Source: Spartobacteria bacterium
Lineage (GTDB): Bacteria > Verrucomicrobiota > Verrucomicrobiia > Chthoniobacterales > UBA6821
Assembly: GCA_947487385.1 (NCBI GenBank)
Contig: CANKWU010000001.1
Location: 203,421-267,420 of the forward strand
Direction of reading: 5' to 3'
DNA: 64,000 bases
The notes below the pieces were generated by a model. The model saw only the letters and a program-made list of their open reading frames with translations. It was not told the DNA's origin and searched no databases. Position numbers and translations under genes: made by a program. Positions 35,441 to 48,615 of the stretch are shown in pieces (the stretch's first letter is position 1; each line of letters opens with the position of its first letter).

Positions 35441-35510
35441 GAAAGGCAAAAGGAAAAATGAAGAATGAAAAAAAGGAATGACTTTTCCATTCCGCATCAT
35501 TCCTCATTCA
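35441..35510. repeat. 7-nt-period inverted arms (RGAATGA / TCATTCY)
   Basis: aaaatga-agaatga..ggaatga opposite tcattcc-tcattca; the latter forms the last codons and stop of the Ahb-like gene. Confidence 0.65.
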
Positions 35511-39162: not shown

Positions 39163-39789
39163 CTAAGCCACAGCGATTTTGAGATCGCTCTGGCCAGGGG
39201 AGATCTCGAAGAGGATGGGAATATTTGTAAGCTTTGATAAGAGTCGTCTGTTTCCATCTGCGGCCAGATCTCCGACATCTTCGGGGTGATTGTTCAGCAC
39301 AATTCCCTCGCAAGTCAGTCCATGTGCAGCGATCGACTCAAGGGTGAGTAGGGTATGATTCAGGGCACCAAGTCGGTTGCGAACCACAAGTAGCACGGGG
39401 AAACCGATGGCTTTGGCGAGATCTGCCGTCGAGTAATCCTGCGCCAGGGGAACCAGCCAGCCTCCCACACCCTCCACAAGGAGAGAGCGGTGGGTGCGAT
39501 GCAATCGCTCGATAATGGGCAGGACTTCCGAGGAATCAAATGAGCGTCCTTCCAGTCGTGCAGCCTCGATAGGGGCAAGTGGGGCAGCGTAGGCCACGGG
39601 AGTGACCTCGTCCATGGAGAGCTCGTTGTCGGCGGCTGCCCGGAGCCTCCTGCTATCCTCGGGTTCACCACAGGAGATCGGCTTCATGGCTACGGTATCG
39701 AATCCAGCCTTGCGGAGGCTTCGCGTCAGGAGCTCGGTTACAAACGTCTTACCGGCATTGGTGTCAATGCCGGTAATAAATAAGTTCAT
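39163..39789 (-). CDS. bioD: Dethiobiotin synthase
   Basis: FITGIDTNAGKT, MKPISCG, LVEGVGGW, LGALNHTLLT. Confidence 0.95.
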   Translation of the reverse strand: MNLFITGIDTNAGKTFVTELLTRSLRKAGFDTVAMKPISCGEPEDSRRLRAAADNELSMDEVTPVAYAAPLAPIEAARLEGRSFDSSEVLPIIERLHRTHRSLLVEGVGGWLVPLAQDYSTADLAKAIGFPVLLVVRNRLGALNHTLLTLESIAAHGLTCEGIVLNNHPEDVGDLAADGNRRLLSKLTNIPILFEISPGQSDLKIAVA

Positions 39790-39798
39790 TGGGGTAAT

Positions 39799-39834
39799 GG
39801 CTGAAGGCTGAAGACTCTTAGGCTGAAGGCCTAG
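39799..39834. repeat. 7-nt-period tandem array (GGCTGAA / TTCAGCC)
   Basis: ggctgaa-ggctgaa-gactctt-a-ggctgaa-ggcctag directly upstream of bioD. Confidence 0.8.
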
Positions 39835-44271: not shown

Positions 44272-44531
44272 AATTGCTTGCCAAATGACTGCTATGAACG
44301 ACACCGTCAAGAAGTCGAAATGATGTGGTGAGTCTCTTTATCCGTGAATGGCCTGATATATGCCGTCTCTTGGAGTCGTCTGATTTAGTCGAGGTTTTCC
44401 TTGATCGTATCGAGGGCATTACTTTCTCATGGTAGTTCGAGCGACTCGTGGTCAGTCAACACATGGGGAGCCGTCAGGCTGCTGGAGTCGAACGGCGATG
44501 TTTTGGATAAAATATAAAAAAAACCTAAAAC

Positions 44532-45851
44532 ATGAAGTGGATTACAAGTCAAATTGGAGCGAGGGAGCATTTTGCCATACCGAGAGTCTTGTATGCGTCG
44601 GGTAAGCTGGAGCGGCTTTACACCGACTTCTGGGCAACGGCACCTTGGAGGCTGATCGGAAAGCTGAGTGGAAATAGCGGTTTGGCGACAAGATGCCACG
44701 CTGATCTCGTAGGGGCCTCGGTCACGGGATTCAATTTCCATGCCTTGAAGTCCTTCCGCCAGCGGTTCGCTAATCCATATGATGGCTTCCTTCAAGTCGG
44801 CGAGGCCTTTGGTCGGGATGTCGTTAAAGACCTTGAGGCTGGGTCTTTCTTTCATTCCTCAGCCTTCAGCCTTCAGCCTTCAGTCTCTAGCCATTCTTGC
44901 CCCCCCTCCATCACCCATCACCTATCACCCATGACCAAAATCTTTTTTGGCTACGACACGGGTTTCCTTGAGCCCGCCCGATGGGTTAAGGCACAGGGAG
45001 GGAAGACGATCGTCTGCCAGATGGATCCGGCCCGCTATGAGGTTGATCTGGTGAAGGAGGAGGAGAAGCGCTGGCCTGGCTGGGCTAAGCGATCAGTCGA
45101 GGTTCCTGAGGCCTACTTCCAGCGTCGTGAAGCTGAGTGGACTGTTGCCGATCTCGTGATGGTAAATTCGGATTGGAGCAAGCAGGGGCTGATCCGCCAA
45201 GGGGTGAAAGAGGAAAAGATCGTTGTGGTGCCGTTGGCTTATGAAGTCACCCAGGACGAGGGAGGGGGGACGAGAGACGAGGGCTATGGGAATGCAGAAA
45301 AAAGCTCTCGACGCTCGACGTTTGACTCCCGACGCCCTTTACGAATTTTGTTTTTGGGGCAGGTCATCCTCCGCAAAGGAATCCAATATTTGATTGAAGC
45401 GGCAAGGATGCTTGAGGAGGAGTCGGTTCATTTCGATGTGGTAGGACCGATCGGGATTGCTGATGAGGGGGTGAAGTCTTCCCCTAAGAATATGACTTTT
45501 CATGGACCGGTTAGCCGTGATCGGACGGAGGAGTTTTACCGCACGGCTGATCTCTTCGTCCTACCGACTGTTTCTGATGGATTTGCACTCACTCAACTTG
45601 AAGCAATGGCTCATCGGTTGCCCGTGATCGCCACGCCAAATTGCGGTGAAGTTGTGACAGATGGAGTGGATGGATTGATCGTTCCGGCCTGTGACCCCAT
45701 GGCGCTTGCTGAGGCATTCCAGTTGCTGATTCAGGATCCTGAGAAACTCCGTGCCATGAATGAAGCAACTAAAGCAAAGGTTCAGAAATTCAGCCTGGCA
45801 AGGCTAGGTGAGAATCTCACTGCTTTGGAGCAGTATTTTCTTTCAATCTAG
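44532..45851 (+). CDS. Glycosyltransferase family 4 with two repeat-derived in-frame insertions
   Basis: LRILFLGQVILRKG, ADLFVLPTVSDGFALTQLEAMA..LPVIAT. Confidence 0.9.
   Translation: MKWITSQIGAREHFAIPRVLYASGKLERLYTDFWATAPWRLIGKLSGNSGLATRCHADLVGASVTGFNFHALKSFRQRFANPYDGFLQVGEAFGRDVVKDLEAGSFFHSSAFSLQPSVSSHSCPPSITHHLSPMTKIFFGYDTGFLEPARWVKAQGGKTIVCQMDPARYEVDLVKEEEKRWPGWAKRSVEVPEAYFQRREAEWTVADLVMVNSDWSKQGLIRQGVKEEKIVVVPLAYEVTQDEGGGTRDEGYGNAEKSSRRSTFDSRRPLRILFLGQVILRKGIQYLIEAARMLEEESVHFDVVGPIGIADEGVKSSPKNMTFHGPVSRDRTEEFYRTADLFVLPTVSDGFALTQLEAMAHRLPVIATPNCGEVVTDGVDGLIVPACDPMALAEAFQLLIQDPEKLRAMNEATKAKVQKFSLARLGENLTALEQYFLSI
44852..44935 (+). repeat. Twelve in-register heptamer units (84 nt) inside the GT4 CDS
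   Basis: tcattcc-(tcagcct)x3-tcagtct-ctagcca-ttcttgc-cccccct-ccatcac-ccatcac-ctatcac-ccatgac. Confidence 0.8.
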
Positions 45852-46000: not shown

Positions 46001-47329
46001 ATGAATCTGCAAAAATATTTTAATAAAACTCGGCAAGAATACCAAGAAGCCTATGACATGCTTGCATTCTACCTTGCAGATGAAGGACAAGACTCGGCAG
46101 AATACCAACTGCAGTCATTTGCTGAAATTTGGGAGGATGCGGTTACTGACATTCCTTACTACAAGAAGCTTGTCTCAACTAGGAAAGCCCCTAGAAAAAT
46201 TAAATCCTGGGATGATTTCAAAGAAATTCCTGAACTCACAAGAGATATTGTTCATAATAACAGGGCTGAATTGATTCGGTATAAATCCAAGCCCCCTTTG
46301 CTCCGAATGACTGGTGGGTCCACTGGCAATCCTATGCAATTCGGTGTTTCCAGAGAGGAGGGTAGGCGGATTCGATTGTTAAAACTGATTCTCTGGATTC
46401 GGGCCGGATATAAGATAGATTCCAATATTTTTCTTCTATGGGGACATACTCATCTGCTTGGCAATGGAATCCGCAAATATAGGAATATGTTAGTTCGAGG
46501 CGTTAAGGATATCCTTCTAGGATATACTCGTGTTGATGCCCATCATCTTGGCATTGAAACCTGCAGGAAATATGCGCAAAAACTACTATCATCCAAGGCC
46601 AATGCAGTAATCGGATATACAGCTGCGATTGACCAGTTCACTAGATCAATTCCTGAATTTCGTGAGCGTATTCGAGAATTGAACTTAACGTTTGTTATGA
46701 CCTGTTCAGAGATGGCTCCAAGGGAAGATACTTACTCCATCTTAAGCGATTATTTTGGATGTCCGATAATCCAAGAGTATGGTGGAGTGGATCTTGGTCA
46801 AATCGCTATGAAATATCACGATGAACCTTTCAAGGTCTTCCATCGGGAAAATATCGTGGAGTCTCTGGATGCAGAGGCGGAAAAAGAAAGCTCACCTGTC
46901 CTTGTAACAACAACATACAAAAGATACTTTCCCCTGATCAGATATCGTGCAGGAGATCTTTTGCAGGGATGCAAACTCAACACCCAGGGTAATGTCATTT
47001 CGTTTAAGAGTCTTAGTGGGAGAGAAAATGATGTTGTGACACTTCCGAACGGAGAAATTCTACATAGCCTTAGTTTTCTTCATTGTATCAGGGAGGAAAA
47101 AGAGGTGCATCAAGTGCAACTTATTCTCGAAGATCATGGAATGGAAATATTGCTGGTCGTTTCAATGTCCTATTCAGAAGAGGTGGAAAAGCGGATTCGA
47201 GTCCGCCTTTTAAAGCTTTCAAGCAGTCTCACTAATTTCAGTATTCGGACGACAAACGATCTCTCTACTACTATAGCAGGAAAGAGATCGTGGGTGATTG
47301 ACCGGAGGAAGAGGAATGCTGGTGCGTGA
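46001..47329 (+). CDS. Phenylacetate-CoA-ligase-like adenylate-forming enzyme (CapK-like)
   Basis: IPYYK, MTGGSTGNP (P-loop), QEYGGVDLG, FPLIRYRAGD, GRENDVV; AT-rich (24/60 GC at 46021-46080). Confidence 0.85.
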   Translation: MNLQKYFNKTRQEYQEAYDMLAFYLADEGQDSAEYQLQSFAEIWEDAVTDIPYYKKLVSTRKAPRKIKSWDDFKEIPELTRDIVHNNRAELIRYKSKPPLLRMTGGSTGNPMQFGVSREEGRRIRLLKLILWIRAGYKIDSNIFLLWGHTHLLGNGIRKYRNMLVRGVKDILLGYTRVDAHHLGIETCRKYAQKLLSSKANAVIGYTAAIDQFTRSIPEFRERIRELNLTFVMTCSEMAPREDTYSILSDYFGCPIIQEYGGVDLGQIAMKYHDEPFKVFHRENIVESLDAEAEKESSPVLVTTTYKRYFPLIRYRAGDLLQGCKLNTQGNVISFKSLSGRENDVVTLPNGEILHSLSFLHCIREEKEVHQVQLILEDHGMEILLVVSMSYSEEVEKRIRVRLLKLSSSLTNFSIRTTNDLSTTIAGKRSWVIDRRKRNAGA

Positions 47330-48615
47330 CCATGCAGGAGATTACAACTGCTATCGTATTTTGGAGGCTTGGTCCTTACCACCATGCCCGAATGAATGCA
47401 GCGGGAAAGCTTAACAAAACCATCGGACTAGAGGCCTGTGGGATTGAGGATACCTATGCATGGGACACTGTGTCCGGATCTCAAGAATTCGACCGGATCA
47501 CCTTGACGAGAAAATATTCTCCCACAAGAGCCTGGAGAAGAGAACTGCAGCAGCAGATGTTTCAAGAACTAGACCGTATTAGTCCTGATGTCCTAGTTAT
47601 CCCCGGATGGGTGATGCCCGATGCCATTAGTGGATTGTATTGGGCTATAAAAAAGAACATTCCTGTTGTCTGCATGTCTGAGTCCACGCGGTGGGATGCA
47701 GAACGCAGTCCGATCAAAGAATGGGTTAAGAGGAGGATTATCTCCCTCTTCTCGGCGGCGCTGGTAGGTGGAACTCCCCATCGGGACTACATGTTAAATC
47801 TGGGGATGCCTGCCGATCGGATCTTCCTGGGCTATGATGCGGTAGATAACGGATTTTTCTCAGAGGGAGTGAGAAAAATCGTCGAGGGTCGAGAATCGAG
47901 AGTCAAGAGAACTGCAGTACAAGACGAAGCAAGGGAGATAGGATCTAGGAGATTGGAGGTGGGGGAAAGGAAGAAGCCTTACTTCCTTGCATTGGCCCGC
48001 TTCATCGAGAAAAAGAATTTGCCCCGATTACTCCGTGCGTATGCTCACTATCGGGGAAAGAGTTTGCCCTCGACCCTCGACGTTCGACCCTCGACTGCTC
48101 AGTCCACTTGGGATCTGGTCATTATCGGTGATGGGGAACTGCGTTCTGATCTGGAAAAATTGAGCTCGGAACTTGGTCTTGAGGACTGCGTTCAGATGCC
48201 TGGATTCAAACAGTATGAGCAGCTTCCTTCGTACTACGCAAATGCTGGAGCCTTTATTCACGCCAGCACGACGGAGCCGTGGGGACTGGTGATCAACGAA
48301 GCGATGGCATCGGGACTCCCTGTTCTGGTGAGCAACCGCTGTGGATGCGCTACTGATCTGGTACAGGAGGGAGAGAACGGATGGACTTTCGATCCCTTCA
48401 ATGAGGAGCAGATGGCGGATCTGATGCTCAGAATCTCAAGTGATGAAGATGGAAGATTGAAGATGGGAGTCAGAAGTCGTGATATTATCGCTATTTGGGG
48501 TCTGGATCGTTTTGCGTCTGGTCTCACTGGGGCCGTTCAGGCCGCGCTCTCAGAACCTAGGAAGGGCGCCGGATTTCTCAATCGACTTCTTTTATCTGTA
48601 TTGATTCGCAGATAG
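47326..48615 (+). CDS. Glycosyltransferase family 4 with repeat-derived insertions
   Basis: YFLALARFIEKKNLPRLL, IIGDGELR, EPWGLVINEAMASGLPV. Confidence 0.9.
   Translation: MTMQEITTAIVFWRLGPYHHARMNAAGKLNKTIGLEACGIEDTYAWDTVSGSQEFDRITLTRKYSPTRAWRRELQQQMFQELDRISPDVLVIPGWVMPDAISGLYWAIKKNIPVVCMSESTRWDAERSPIKEWVKRRIISLFSAALVGGTPHRDYMLNLGMPADRIFLGYDAVDNGFFSEGVRKIVEGRESRVKRTAVQDEAREIGSRRLEVGERKKPYFLALARFIEKKNLPRLLRAYAHYRGKSLPSTLDVRPSTAQSTWDLVIIGDGELRSDLEKLSSELGLEDCVQMPGFKQYEQLPSYYANAGAFIHASTTEPWGLVINEAMASGLPVLVSNRCGCATDLVQEGENGWTFDPFNEEQMADLMLRISSDEDGRLKMGVRSRDIIAIWGLDRFASGLTGAVQAALSEPRKGAGFLNRLLLSVLIRR

What the first reader, a model, noticed from the sequence alone, without database searches (positions are those of the whole stretch)
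44852..44935. Intergenic-type heptamer repeats captured in frame inside a glycosyltransferase: 12 units, 84 nt, 28 codons
Seen: twelve consecutive 7-nt units in register (tcattcc, tcagcct x3, tcagtct ... ccatcac x2, ctatcac, ccatgac) encode a Ser/Pro/His-rich stretch (HSSAFSLQPSVSSHSCPPSITHHLSPMT) in the N-terminal domain of a GT4. The same unit types occur intergenically (TTCAGCC at 39799-39827 on the minus strand; TCATTCC at 35497). Twelve heptamers is a multiple of 21 nt, so the frame is preserved. Inference: a junction-repeat family is invading coding sequence and survives only at copy numbers divisible by three, analogous to Rickettsia palindromic elements or cyanobacterial heptamer repeats. 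Slippage by one unit would switch the gene off, a possible contingency mechanism for surface polysaccharide.
Basis: partly seen in the sequence, partly recalled or inferred. Interest (0 to 1): 0.75.

Follow-up and report, generated by a model that had tools for sequence, protein, structure and literature searches.

The report
Translated heptamer repeats in glycosyltransferase loop
Two short runs of 7-base repeats, of the kind this freshwater bacterium normally carries just in front of its genes, are read as a floppy surface loop of a sugar-transferase enzyme. The insert is inherited at a fixed length, so nothing suggests it acts as an on/off switch.

Summary
The repeats are real, but there are not twelve units. 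There are about five TCAGCCT-type units (44852-44886), a 21-nt non-repeat spacer, and four CCATCAC units (44908-44936). All are in frame in the GT4 gene 44532-45851.

In 121 orthologs this point is one of two hypervariable sites, 11-83 aa long. AlphaFold2 models it as a disordered loop (residues 106-134, pLDDT below 50).

The units are the genome's gene-junction type. Period-7 arrays are about 30 times denser outside coding DNA, and many end 0-32 nt before a start codon with the G-poor strand as sense. The organism shows no Shine-Dalgarno signal. (TTCAGCC)3 occurs in 17 of 19 genomes of the genus and in none of 12 sister genera.

The switch idea is not supported. Spanning contigs from eight metagenome runs, a ninth covering it in two overlapping contigs, and three orthologs at 73-97% protein identity keep exactly 84 nt; a fourth (74%) is 6 nt shorter, just upstream of the arrays. 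Arrays inside genes have 3-5 units, not multiples of three.

The gene is a recombination mosaic, and loop modules are reshuffled between lineages. I read the insert as a stable, slippage-born, recombination-spread loop insertion. It is a new member of a known kind (heptanucleotide repeats as described by Mrazek and by MacGregor).

One point is unexplained: the insert diverges 6-12 times less than synonymous sites of the core.

The parts
44532..45851 (+). GT4-type glycosyltransferase gene (439 aa) that carries the insert
   Evidence: ORF. Pfam PF13692 and PF00534 on residues 267-414. 3433 homologues, the best 120 covering 90-100% of the length. The N-terminus MKWITSQIGAREH is shared by orthologs.
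44852..44886 (+). Array 1: TCATTCC, TCAGCCT x3, TCAGTCT (a rotation of TTCAGCC); translated as HSSAFSLQPSV
   Evidence: TRF: 44859-44883, period 7, 3.6 copies, 100% matches. Unit list. The same unit forms arrays at five other loci of this genome and in 17 of 19 genomes of the genus.
44887..44907 (+). 21-nt non-repetitive spacer CTAGCCATTCTTGCCCCCCCT (SSHSCPP)
   Evidence: No period-7 match. TCTCTAGCCATTCTTG (44884-44899) is identical in all five orthologs that carry the composite insert; the two bases after it are also identical in four of them, and L010 has one change.
44908..44936 (+). Array 2: CCATCAC x2, CTATCAC, CCATGAC; translated as PSITHHLSPMT
   Evidence: TRF: period 7, 4.1 copies, 86% matches. 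The same module (PITHHPSPI) lies directly before IFFGYDTG in many orthologs, joined to different upstream modules. It is present alone in L022.
44932..44934 (+). In-frame ATG directly after array 2, which makes the layout resemble a leader array followed by a start codon
   Evidence: The ATG is absent in L011 (AAG) and in L013 and L020 (ATC), so it is not conserved.
45254..45335 (+). Second heptamer-derived insert of the same gene, in the interdomain linker (site 2): a GACGAGG-type arm, a spacer and a CTCGACG arm; translated as DEGGGTRDEG...SRRSTFDSRR
   Evidence: TRF 45307-45335. Sequence. This is hypervariable site 2, 13-86 aa in 121 orthologs. pLDDT is below 50 at residues 242-261.
39799..39830 (-). 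Intergenic (TTCAGCC)n leader array, 10 nt upstream of the start of gene 39163-39789
   Evidence: distance 9-10 nt; the pyrimidine-rich strand is the sense strand.
47881..48466 (+). Three further translated heptamer arrays in the neighbouring GT4 gene 47326-48615 (GTCGAGA, CCCTCGA, GAAGATG)
   Evidence: The first two are inverted partners of each other.
44427..44855 (-). Antisense 142-aa ORF starting at the edge of array 1; judged spurious
   Evidence: No Pfam match. It has no ATG in L011 and two stops in L013.

Best explanation
The 84 nt are a composite, in-frame loop insertion built from two heptanucleotide micro-arrays and a unique spacer. It sits in a tolerant, disordered surface loop of the N-terminal domain of a GT4 glycosyltransferase.

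The host is a freshwater Verrucomicrobiota genus whose relatives are labelled Spartobacteria. This lineage carries many short (about 4-unit) 7-nt tandem arrays at gene junctions. Most often they lie just 5' of start codons, with the G-poor, pyrimidine-rich strand as sense, in a genome with no Shine-Dalgarno signal.

Such arrays occasionally arise or are copied inside genes. They persist only where three conditions hold: the protein tolerates extra residues (linkers and loops), the unit has no stop codon in any frame on the sense strand, and the total added length is a multiple of 3 nt.

In this GT4 family two such sites have been colonised repeatedly by different unit families. The resulting modules are reshuffled between lineages by homologous recombination.

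The allele in this window is an old, fixed one. It is inherited at constant length and changes by point substitution. It does not behave as a slipped-strand switch.

Shown: the anatomy, the loop location, the non-coding bias, the restriction of the unit to the genus, the length stability and the mosaic structure. Inferred: origin by slippage, spread by recombination or conversion, and near-neutrality of the peptide.
For: Anatomy: two arrays plus a spacer.

In frame in a real gene: orthologs align on both sides of the insert.

Loop location: the insert follows helix 82-104 and precedes strand 136-141, and residues 106-134 have pLDDT below 50.

Hypervariable sites: site 1 is 11-83 aa and site 2 is 13-86 aa in 121 orthologs. 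Recurring modules are translations of heptamers: SAFSLQP from TCAGCCT, PSPITHH from CCATCAC, DEGRGTR from GACGAGG and LDARRST from CTCGACG. The left module alone occurs in L021, the right module alone in L022, and both together in five orthologs.

Non-coding bias: of 60 period-7 arrays, 49 lie outside coding sequence and 11 inside, a density ratio of about 30. Twenty-three lie 0-32 nt upstream of a called start, and 20 of the 34 arrays within 150 nt of a start have the pyrimidine-rich strand as sense.

No Shine-Dalgarno enrichment: 16% of genes against 18% in the control window.

The focal sense RNA has minimum free energy 0 and only 7 G in 84 nt, like the leaders.

Genus-specific unit: (TTCAGCC)3 occurs in 17 of 19 genomes of the genus, in 0 of 12 other genera, and the reversed control gives 0 in the genus. 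In relatives these arrays again lie just before an ATG.

Stability: spanning contigs from eight metagenome runs show no indel, and a ninth run covers the stretch in two overlapping contigs. The insert is 84 nt in L010, L011 and L020 and 78 nt in L013, with only substitutions inside the arrays.

Stop-free only on the sense strand: both units carry TGA on the antisense strand.

Recombination: against L011, nucleotide identity ranges from 62-69% (codons 1-48) to 97-100% (codons 331-400). L013 and L020 are mostly 97-100% identical but differ at site 1's left flank and at site 2.
Against: The insert is more conserved than a neutral loop should be. Its dS is 0.11-0.24 against a core dS of about 1.3, with dN roughly equal to dS inside the insert, and the spacer core TCTCTAGCCATTCTTG is invariant in five orthologs. 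This may reflect recent exchange of the loop segment, but nucleotide-level or peptide-level selection is not excluded.

Only assembled contigs were available, not raw reads, so minority length variants within populations could not be seen.

Gene calls came from a crude self-trained caller, so the coding versus non-coding counts are approximate.

The structural model is mediocre: mean pLDDT 66, with a weak N-terminal domain.
Confidence: 0.75

Rival explanations
1. Contingency locus: slipped-strand mispairing in the (TCAGCCT)n or (CCATCAC)n tract switches the glycosyltransferase on and off at high frequency, varying a surface polysaccharide.
For: The unit length is not a multiple of 3, the tract lies inside a polysaccharide-cluster GT4, and a +/-7-nt change truncates the protein at residue 122 or 132. 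Glycosyltransferases hold most of the arrays found inside genes in this genome. Phase-variable glycosyltransferases driven by heptanucleotide repeats exist, for example Neisseria pglE (from my own knowledge, not checked here).
Against: Spanning contigs from eight metagenome runs, including two strains that differ by 10-12 substitutions, show no length variant, and a ninth run covers the stretch in two overlapping contigs. Three orthologs down to 73% protein identity keep exactly 84 nt; a fourth is 6 nt shorter outside the arrays. There are only 3.6 perfect units, and the arrays are decaying by point mutation. All 120 listed orthologs align on both sides of the site.
Confidence: 0.06
2. Selected cis-element or functional loop. 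Either the nucleotide sequence (a G-poor, structure-free tract plus a conserved spacer, possibly acting as an internal leader for the ATG at 44932 or as a binding site for the factor that reads leader arrays) or the peptide (FSLQPS.SSHSC.P.ITHH, with His and Cys residues) is maintained by selection.
For: The insert's dS is 6-12 times lower than the core's. Insert divergence does not scale with core divergence: there are 7 differences both between L013 and L020 (core dS 0.14) and between the window and L020 (core dS 1.36). The spacer core TCTCTAGCCATTCTTG is invariant in all five orthologs. The sense RNA is unstructured, like the leaders, and the tract ends in an in-frame ATG.
Against: The ATG is absent in L011, L013 and L020. 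dN is roughly equal to dS within the insert, which argues against peptide selection. Many orthologs lack the modules altogether or carry unrelated ones. The gene is a recombination mosaic, which by itself can lower local divergence. Array homogenisation by slippage can mimic conservation.
Confidence: 0.14
3. In-frame insertion of a mobile palindromic element, like a Rickettsia palindromic element or a MITE.
For: Inserts at site 2 and in some orthologs' site 1 have two roughly inverted heptamer arms. Seven of 60 arrays have an inverted partner within 250 nt, against 1 in each control.
Against: The focal stretch cannot fold: minimum free energy is 0, and all 200 shuffles fold at least as well. 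Its two arms are not complementary. The 84-nt composite occurs once in the genome and in no other of 23 genomes of the genus; only the array parts match elsewhere. No target-site duplication or terminal inverted repeats are apparent.
Confidence: 0.03
4. The stretch is a true intergenic leader between two separate genes (a 106-aa ORF and a gene starting at ATG 44932) or a recent gene fusion, and the continuous ORF is a coincidence or an artefact.
For: The layout looks exactly like this genome's leaders: a pyrimidine-rich array directly followed by ATG. A -7 variant would give an ATGA-coupled pair of ORFs.
Against: All 120 listed orthologs, including those with an 11-aa loop and no Met, align on both sides of the site. 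Homologues at 38-44% identity in other Verrucomicrobiota match query residues 1-438 within one locus. Both halves belong to one GT-B N-terminal domain in the model. Spanning contigs from eight independent assemblies give the same sequence.
Confidence: 0.02

Closest known systems
Long simple sequence repeats with 5-11-nt units, in which heptanucleotides predominate (Mrazek et al. 2007, as summarised in PMC4679880)
   Same: Head-to-tail 7-nt units longer than chance. They are sporadic and lineage-specific in abundance and are attributed to polymerase slippage. Units that are not multiples of 3 nt are mostly kept out of coding DNA.
   Different: Here the arrays are short (median about 4 units) and use many unit families. 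They are strongly tied to the region just 5' of start codons, and they recur at the same two loops of one enzyme family.
TAACTGA heptamer direct repeats of Beggiatoaceae, cyanobacteria and Bacteroidetes (MacGregor 2015, PMC4679880)
   Same: Most arrays lie within a few nucleotides upstream of start codons, in regions that lack Shine-Dalgarno sites. A minority are translated inside ORFs, in the only orientation free of stop codons, and mostly at the periphery of proteins (searches compared).
   Different: The units differ (TTCAGCC, CCATCAC, CTCGACN, TTCATCA and others, not TAACTGA), there are several families per genome, the phylum differs, and the translated copies here sit in internal loops of a conserved enzyme.
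Tandem repeats of Borg elements that create disordered regions in proteins (PMC9879509)
   Same: Nucleotide tandem repeats inside ORFs are translated into low-complexity, disordered segments, and homologous proteins carry repeats at the same hotspot.
   Different: As I read that paper's abstract, Borg repeats in ORFs give perfect amino-acid repeats and evolve rapidly. Here the unit is 7 nt, so three units give one 7-aa period, the arrays are short and degenerate, and this allele is stable.
Simple-sequence contingency loci in glycosyltransferase genes (for example the heptanucleotide tract of Neisseria pglE; from my own knowledge)
   Same: A repeat whose unit is not a multiple of 3 nt lies inside a glycosyltransferase gene, and one slip shifts the frame.
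   Different: No copy-number polymorphism was found, the perfect tract is very short, and the insert is inherited at fixed length across species-level divergence.
Rickettsia palindromic elements inserted in frame in protein genes
   Same: Repetitive DNA of non-coding type is translated as an extra surface segment of an otherwise conserved protein.
   Different: The focal insert is not palindromic, is not a dispersed full-length element and has no defined ends.

Membership tests
Heptanucleotide simple sequence repeat (LSSR sense) | Tandem head-to-tail copies of a 7-nt unit, longer than expected by chance | tested here: met
   TRF: 3.6 perfect and 4.1 imperfect copies. The genome has 18 perfect arrays of at least 3 copies against 0 in a shuffled genome.
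   There are two different arrays separated by 21 nt with no repeat.
Phase-variable contingency locus | Repeat inside or just upstream of a gene, with a unit that shifts the frame when its number changes | tested here: met
   The unit is 7 nt and lies in the coding sequence. A +/-7-nt change gives a stop at residue 122 or 132.
Phase-variable contingency locus | Copy-number polymorphism among strains or within populations | tested here: not met
   No indel in spanning contigs of eight metagenome runs. The insert has the same length in orthologs at 97, 80 and 73% identity. Minority variants could not be tested because only contigs were available.
Phase-variable contingency locus | Long, near-perfect tract that sustains a high slippage rate | tested here: not met
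   The tract has 3.6 perfect units, and its flanking units are degenerate and differ between orthologs by point changes. The tract length needed for switching is from my own knowledge.
Leader-type heptamer arrays (TAACTGA-like class of MacGregor 2015) | Arrays concentrated within a few nucleotides upstream of start codons, in regions poor in Shine-Dalgarno sites | tested here: met
   This holds for the genome's non-coding arrays: 23 arrays lie 0-32 nt from a called start, and there is no Shine-Dalgarno enrichment. The focal copy is an internal, translated one.
Leader-type heptamer arrays (TAACTGA-like class of MacGregor 2015) | Unit sequence TAACTGA | tested here: not met
   The units here are TCAGCCT, CCATCAC and others. 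The resemblance is in layout, not in sequence family.
Rickettsia-palindromic-element-like mobile insert | Palindromic sequence forming a stable hairpin | tested here: not met
   The sense strand has minimum free energy 0 kcal/mol and z = +1.9.
Rickettsia-palindromic-element-like mobile insert | Dispersed near-identical full-length copies | tested here: not met
   The full 84 nt occur only at this locus in 23 genomes of the genus.
GT4 (GT-B, Glycos_transf_1) glycosyltransferase | C-terminal Glycos_transf_1 domain above the Pfam cut-off, and a two-domain GT-B architecture | tested here: met
   PF00534 scores 94.5 bits against a cut-off of 26.4, and PF13692 scores 99.9 bits. PDB matches are to GT4 enzymes, in the C-terminal domain only. 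The model shows alternating strands and helices in both halves. Donor and acceptor substrates were not determined.

The most novel reading that the evidence does not exclude
In this freshwater Verrucomicrobiota genus, the short heptamer arrays may be a functional class of Shine-Dalgarno-independent leader elements, kept G-poor and unstructured and read by a ribosomal or RNA-binding factor. They would be copied between loci by ectopic conversion. On this reading the copies embedded in the two GT4 loops, including this one with its invariant spacer and its dS 6-12 times below the core's, are held by nucleotide-level selection and are not merely tolerated. They would be a route by which regulatory DNA repeatedly creates and exchanges new protein loops.
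Probability: 0.18. Interest if true: 0.65.

Novelty: new member of a known kind. Interest (0 to 1): 0.38.

Why it matters
The case shows how non-coding microsatellite DNA becomes protein sequence. Heptamer arrays that normally sit in front of genes can persist inside a conserved enzyme when three conditions are met: the loop is tolerant, the unit has no stop codon on the sense strand, and the total added length keeps the reading frame.

It also warns against reading every frame-shifting repeat in a glycosyltransferase gene as a phase-variation switch. Here stability across species and across metagenome runs argues against that.

The wider pattern may deserve a study of its own. It includes genus-specific unit families, arrays abutting start codons in a genome without Shine-Dalgarno sites, and two recurrently colonised and recombining loops in more than 100 orthologs. 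I found no paper describing this for Verrucomicrobia.

Tried and rejected
- Rfam scan of 44300-45500 at permissive thresholds: only a chance-level sroE match (E = 0.36), outside the insert.
- Hairpin or RNA structure in the focal stretch: none on the sense strand. The antisense strand and site 2 give only weak z-scores, -1.3 to -2.0.
- Antisense ORF 44427-44855 as a real divergent gene whose leader would be the array: rejected. It is not conserved and has no Pfam match.
- Internal start at ATG 44932: the ATG is not conserved.
- Two-arm inverted cassette as the general architecture of the arrays: only 7 of 60 arrays have an inverted partner within 250 nt, so it applies to a minority and not to the focal insert.
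- Same DNA read in another frame, as an explanation for the equal-length (46-aa) but unlike site-2 inserts of L013 and L020: direct DNA alignment shows they are different sequences.
- Literature searches for heptanucleotide or heptamer repeats in Verrucomicrobia or Spartobacteria: no paper found.
- Raw-read test for minority +/-7 variants: not possible, because every run holding the stretch is kept only as assembled contigs.
- TRF counts by period at low score are dominated by two-copy chance hits. I therefore used arrays of at least 3 copies, counts of perfect arrays and a shuffle control.
Full report
**Observation**

It lies in frame in the 439-aa ORF 44532-45851. The C-terminal half of this ORF is a clear Glycos_transf_1 / Glyco_trans_1_4 domain, and solved GT4 enzymes match only that half.

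Tandem Repeats Finder does not see one array of twelve units. It sees two arrays: (TCAGCCT)3.6, perfect, at 44859-44883, and (CCATCAC)4.1 at 44908-44936. One degenerate unit flanks the first array on each side. The 21 nt between the arrays (CTAGCCATTCTTGCCCCCCCT) have no period. The figure of 12 units, 84 nt and 28 codons therefore depends partly on where the boundaries are drawn.

The repeats are not chance. The 2.05-Mb genome has 18 perfect period-7 arrays of at least three copies, and a shuffled genome has none.

**The organism**

The window lies in a 48-contig, 54.8% GC, 2.05-Mb assembly that is about 94% complete. The closest named relatives of the gene are freshwater MAGs labelled Spartobacteria, Verrucomicrobiia or Verrucomicrobiota.

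**Is it an insertion in a real gene?**

Yes. In an alignment of 28 orthologs, and then of 121, the conserved blocks on both sides (…GEAFGRxVVKxL and IFFGYDTGFLEPA…) align without trouble. Between them lies a segment of 11 to 83 aa; here it is 35 aa. A second hypervariable point, 13-86 aa, lies in the interdomain linker between VVPLAYE and PLRVLFLGQ.

An AlphaFold2 model built on the 28-sequence alignment is of modest quality (mean pLDDT 66). It places the focal stretch between helix 82-104 and strand 136-141 and gives residues 106-134 and 242-261 a pLDDT below 50. Both inserts are therefore modelled as disordered loops.

The peptides at both sites are recognisably translated heptamers. SAFSLQP comes from TCAGCCT, PSPITHH from CCATCAC, DEGRGTR from GACGAGG and LDARRST from CTCGACG. 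They occur as modules in many combinations. At the DNA level, L021 has only the left module, L022 only the right module, and five orthologs (this window, L010, L011, L013, L020) have left module, spacer and right module.

**The repeat family in the genome**

I used a crude self-trained gene caller, which gave 1708 genes and 87% coding DNA. With it, 60 period-7 arrays of at least three copies split into 16 inside called genes and 44 outside or at gene edges.

Inspection shows that five of the 16 lie upstream of the real start of yidC, ahcY, gyrB and two other genes. That leaves 11 truly internal arrays in six genes:
- this GT4 (three arrays, at two sites);
- the neighbouring GT4, 47326-48615 (three arrays);
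- a GT-like gene and a GT2 on contig 22;
- the MutL linker;
- the C-terminus of a 5'-3' exonuclease.

The density outside coding DNA is about 30 times that inside.

Many non-coding arrays end 0-32 nt before a start codon with the pyrimidine-rich, G-poor strand as sense. Examples are (CTTTTCA)4.7 followed by ttcATG, and (TTCATCA)4.3 followed by tccttATG. The window's own (TTCAGCC)4.4 at 39799-39830 lies 10 nt before the start of the minus-strand gene.

The genome shows no Shine-Dalgarno signal. SD-like tetramers occur at -20..-4 in 16% of genes against 18% in a control window, and G falls to 16-18% near starts.

This layout is the one described for TAACTGA repeats in Beggiatoaceae, cyanobacteria and Bacteroidetes. 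There, most arrays lie within a few nucleotides upstream of start codons, Shine-Dalgarno sites are rare, and a minority of reverse-orientation copies are translated inside ORFs (PMC4679880). The same paper summarises Mrazek et al. 2007: heptanucleotides are the commonest long simple repeats in many prokaryotic genomes, and polymerase slippage was proposed as the cause.

**Unit specificity**

(TTCAGCC)3, allowing one mismatch, occurs in 17 of 19 genomes of the genus and at many loci each. It occurs in none of 12 other genera of the order, and the reversed control pattern gives no match in the genus. In the relatives I looked at, these arrays again sit just before an ATG.

One orthologous gene keeps a leader array in both species but with different units: (TTTTACC)n here and (TTCAGCC)n in G004. 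In that pair the position is conserved while the unit has turned over.

The full 84-nt composite is found only at this locus in 23 genomes of the genus. Elsewhere only the array parts match.

**Is it a switch?**

A +/-7-nt change would indeed stop translation at residue 122 or 132. I found no sign that this happens.
- Contigs that span the stretch in eight metagenome runs (X1, X2, X3, X5, X8, X9, X11, X13) show no gap. Two of these are strains with 10-12 substitutions. A ninth run, X6, covers it in two overlapping contigs.
- Orthologs at 97, 80 and 73% protein identity keep exactly 84 nt, and one at 74% is 6 nt shorter just upstream of the arrays. Differences inside the arrays are point substitutions.
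- The perfect tract has only 3.6 units.

The caveat is that all runs are held as assembled contigs, so minority variants are invisible.

**Divisible by three?**

The 11 internal arrays have 3.1-5.1 units, and only 3 of 11 have a length that is a multiple of 3 nt. Here there are about 5 and about 4 units. The frame is kept by the total length, which any intact gene must satisfy, so the strong form of the claim fails.

A weaker trace exists. Single indels between otherwise similar loop alleles include 7, 14, 21, 28, 42, 56, 63 and 70 aa more often than the one in seven expected. An example is RVEGRGA, present in P0027 and absent in P0043. Sizes such as 3, 11, 15, 17 and 22 aa are also common, and the events are not independent.

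Orientation is constrained. Both focal units are free of stop codons on the sense strand and carry TGA on the other strand.

**Recombination, and an unexplained conservation**

The gene is a mosaic. Against L011, nucleotide identity runs from 62-69% (codons 1-48) to 97-100% (codons 331-400). L013 and L020 are mostly 97-100% identical, except at the left flank of site 1 (68-77%) and at site 2 (35-60%), where unrelated 46-aa inserts sit. Loop modules are therefore replaced even between very close alleles.

For the five orthologs that share the composite insert, the insert diverges far less than synonymous sites of the core. Its dS is 0.11-0.24 against about 1.3, and dN is roughly equal to dS within the insert. 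The number of differences does not scale with core divergence. The spacer core TCTCTAGCCATTCTTG is invariant in all five; the two bases after it change only in L010.

Recent exchange of the loop segment, homogenisation within arrays, or nucleotide-level selection could each give this pattern. I cannot separate them with the data at hand. I regard exchange as the simplest explanation, given the mosaic.

**Other readings tested**

- The sense RNA of the stretch is completely unstructured (minimum free energy 0) and has 7 G in 84 nt. It therefore resembles a leader array, and here it ends in an in-frame ATG at 44932. That ATG is missing in L011, L013 and L020.
- The antisense ORF that starts at 44855 is not conserved.
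- Rfam finds nothing.
- An element like a Rickettsia palindromic element is excluded for this insert, because there is no hairpin and no dispersed copy. Site 2 and some other arrays do have roughly inverted arms.

**Verdict**

The 'copy numbers divisible by three' and 'contingency switch' parts do not.

The feature is a stable, translated, heptamer-derived loop insertion. It is a new member of a known kind of repeat, in a lineage where I found no published description.

After my own analysis I looked at earlier notes of this scan. They report the same pattern in other Verrucomicrobia: arrays of about four units in loops of glycosyltransferases and of RibD, swapped by recombination, with no switch shown. 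They agree with this reading but are not independent evidence.

Noticed in passing
whole genome (G000); examples at C5:82769-82801, C46:3164-3193, C2:90253-90285: The genome shows no Shine-Dalgarno signal. Many genes have a short heptamer array of G-poor units (TTCANNN types are common) ending 3-30 nt before the start codon.
   Followed up: partly
window 44532-45851 compared with L011, L013 and L020: The GT4 gene is a strong recombination mosaic. Segments that are 97-100% identical in nucleotides lie next to segments at 62-69% in the same pair of orthologs.
   Followed up: partly
window 44884-44901: The spacer core TCTCTAGCCATTCTTG (44884-44899) is invariant in all five orthologs that carry the composite insert, although core synonymous divergence reaches about 1.3. 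The two bases after it change only in L010. Unexplained.
   Followed up: partly
G000 C2:90253-90285 and L017 (G004:C12): The same gene has a leader array directly before its ATG in two species, but with different units: (TTTTACC)n here and (TTCAGCC)n there. The position is conserved and the unit has turned over.
   Followed up: no
window 47881-47909 and 48067-48095: The neighbouring GT4 (47326-48615) carries two translated heptamer arrays, (GTCGAGA)n and (CCCTCGA)n, that are near reverse complements about 160 nt apart, and a third array at 48445-48466.
   Followed up: partly
whole genome (G000): Tandem arrays with an 8-nt period are as biased to non-coding DNA as the 7-nt ones: 38 intergenic, 6 at gene edges and 8 in called genes.
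   Followed up: no
metagenome runs X1, X2, X5 laid on window 44908-44936: Very short contigs made of pure (CCATCAC)n reach word depths of 38-1500, far above this organism's 8-28. The unit is therefore abundant elsewhere in those communities.
   Followed up: no
P0008 (ortholog), N-terminus: One ortholog starts with a duplicated N-terminal stub (MSWICAQIGAREHYAG…), followed by a lysine-rich heptamer-like linker, before the normal start MRWITSQIGAREHY.
   Followed up: no
L007 3115-3147 and 3700-3736: A 43%-identical homologue from a peat Verrucomicrobiota MAG also has period-7 arrays inside the gene, one of them at the interdomain linker. The habit therefore extends beyond the genus, with other units.
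   Followed up: no
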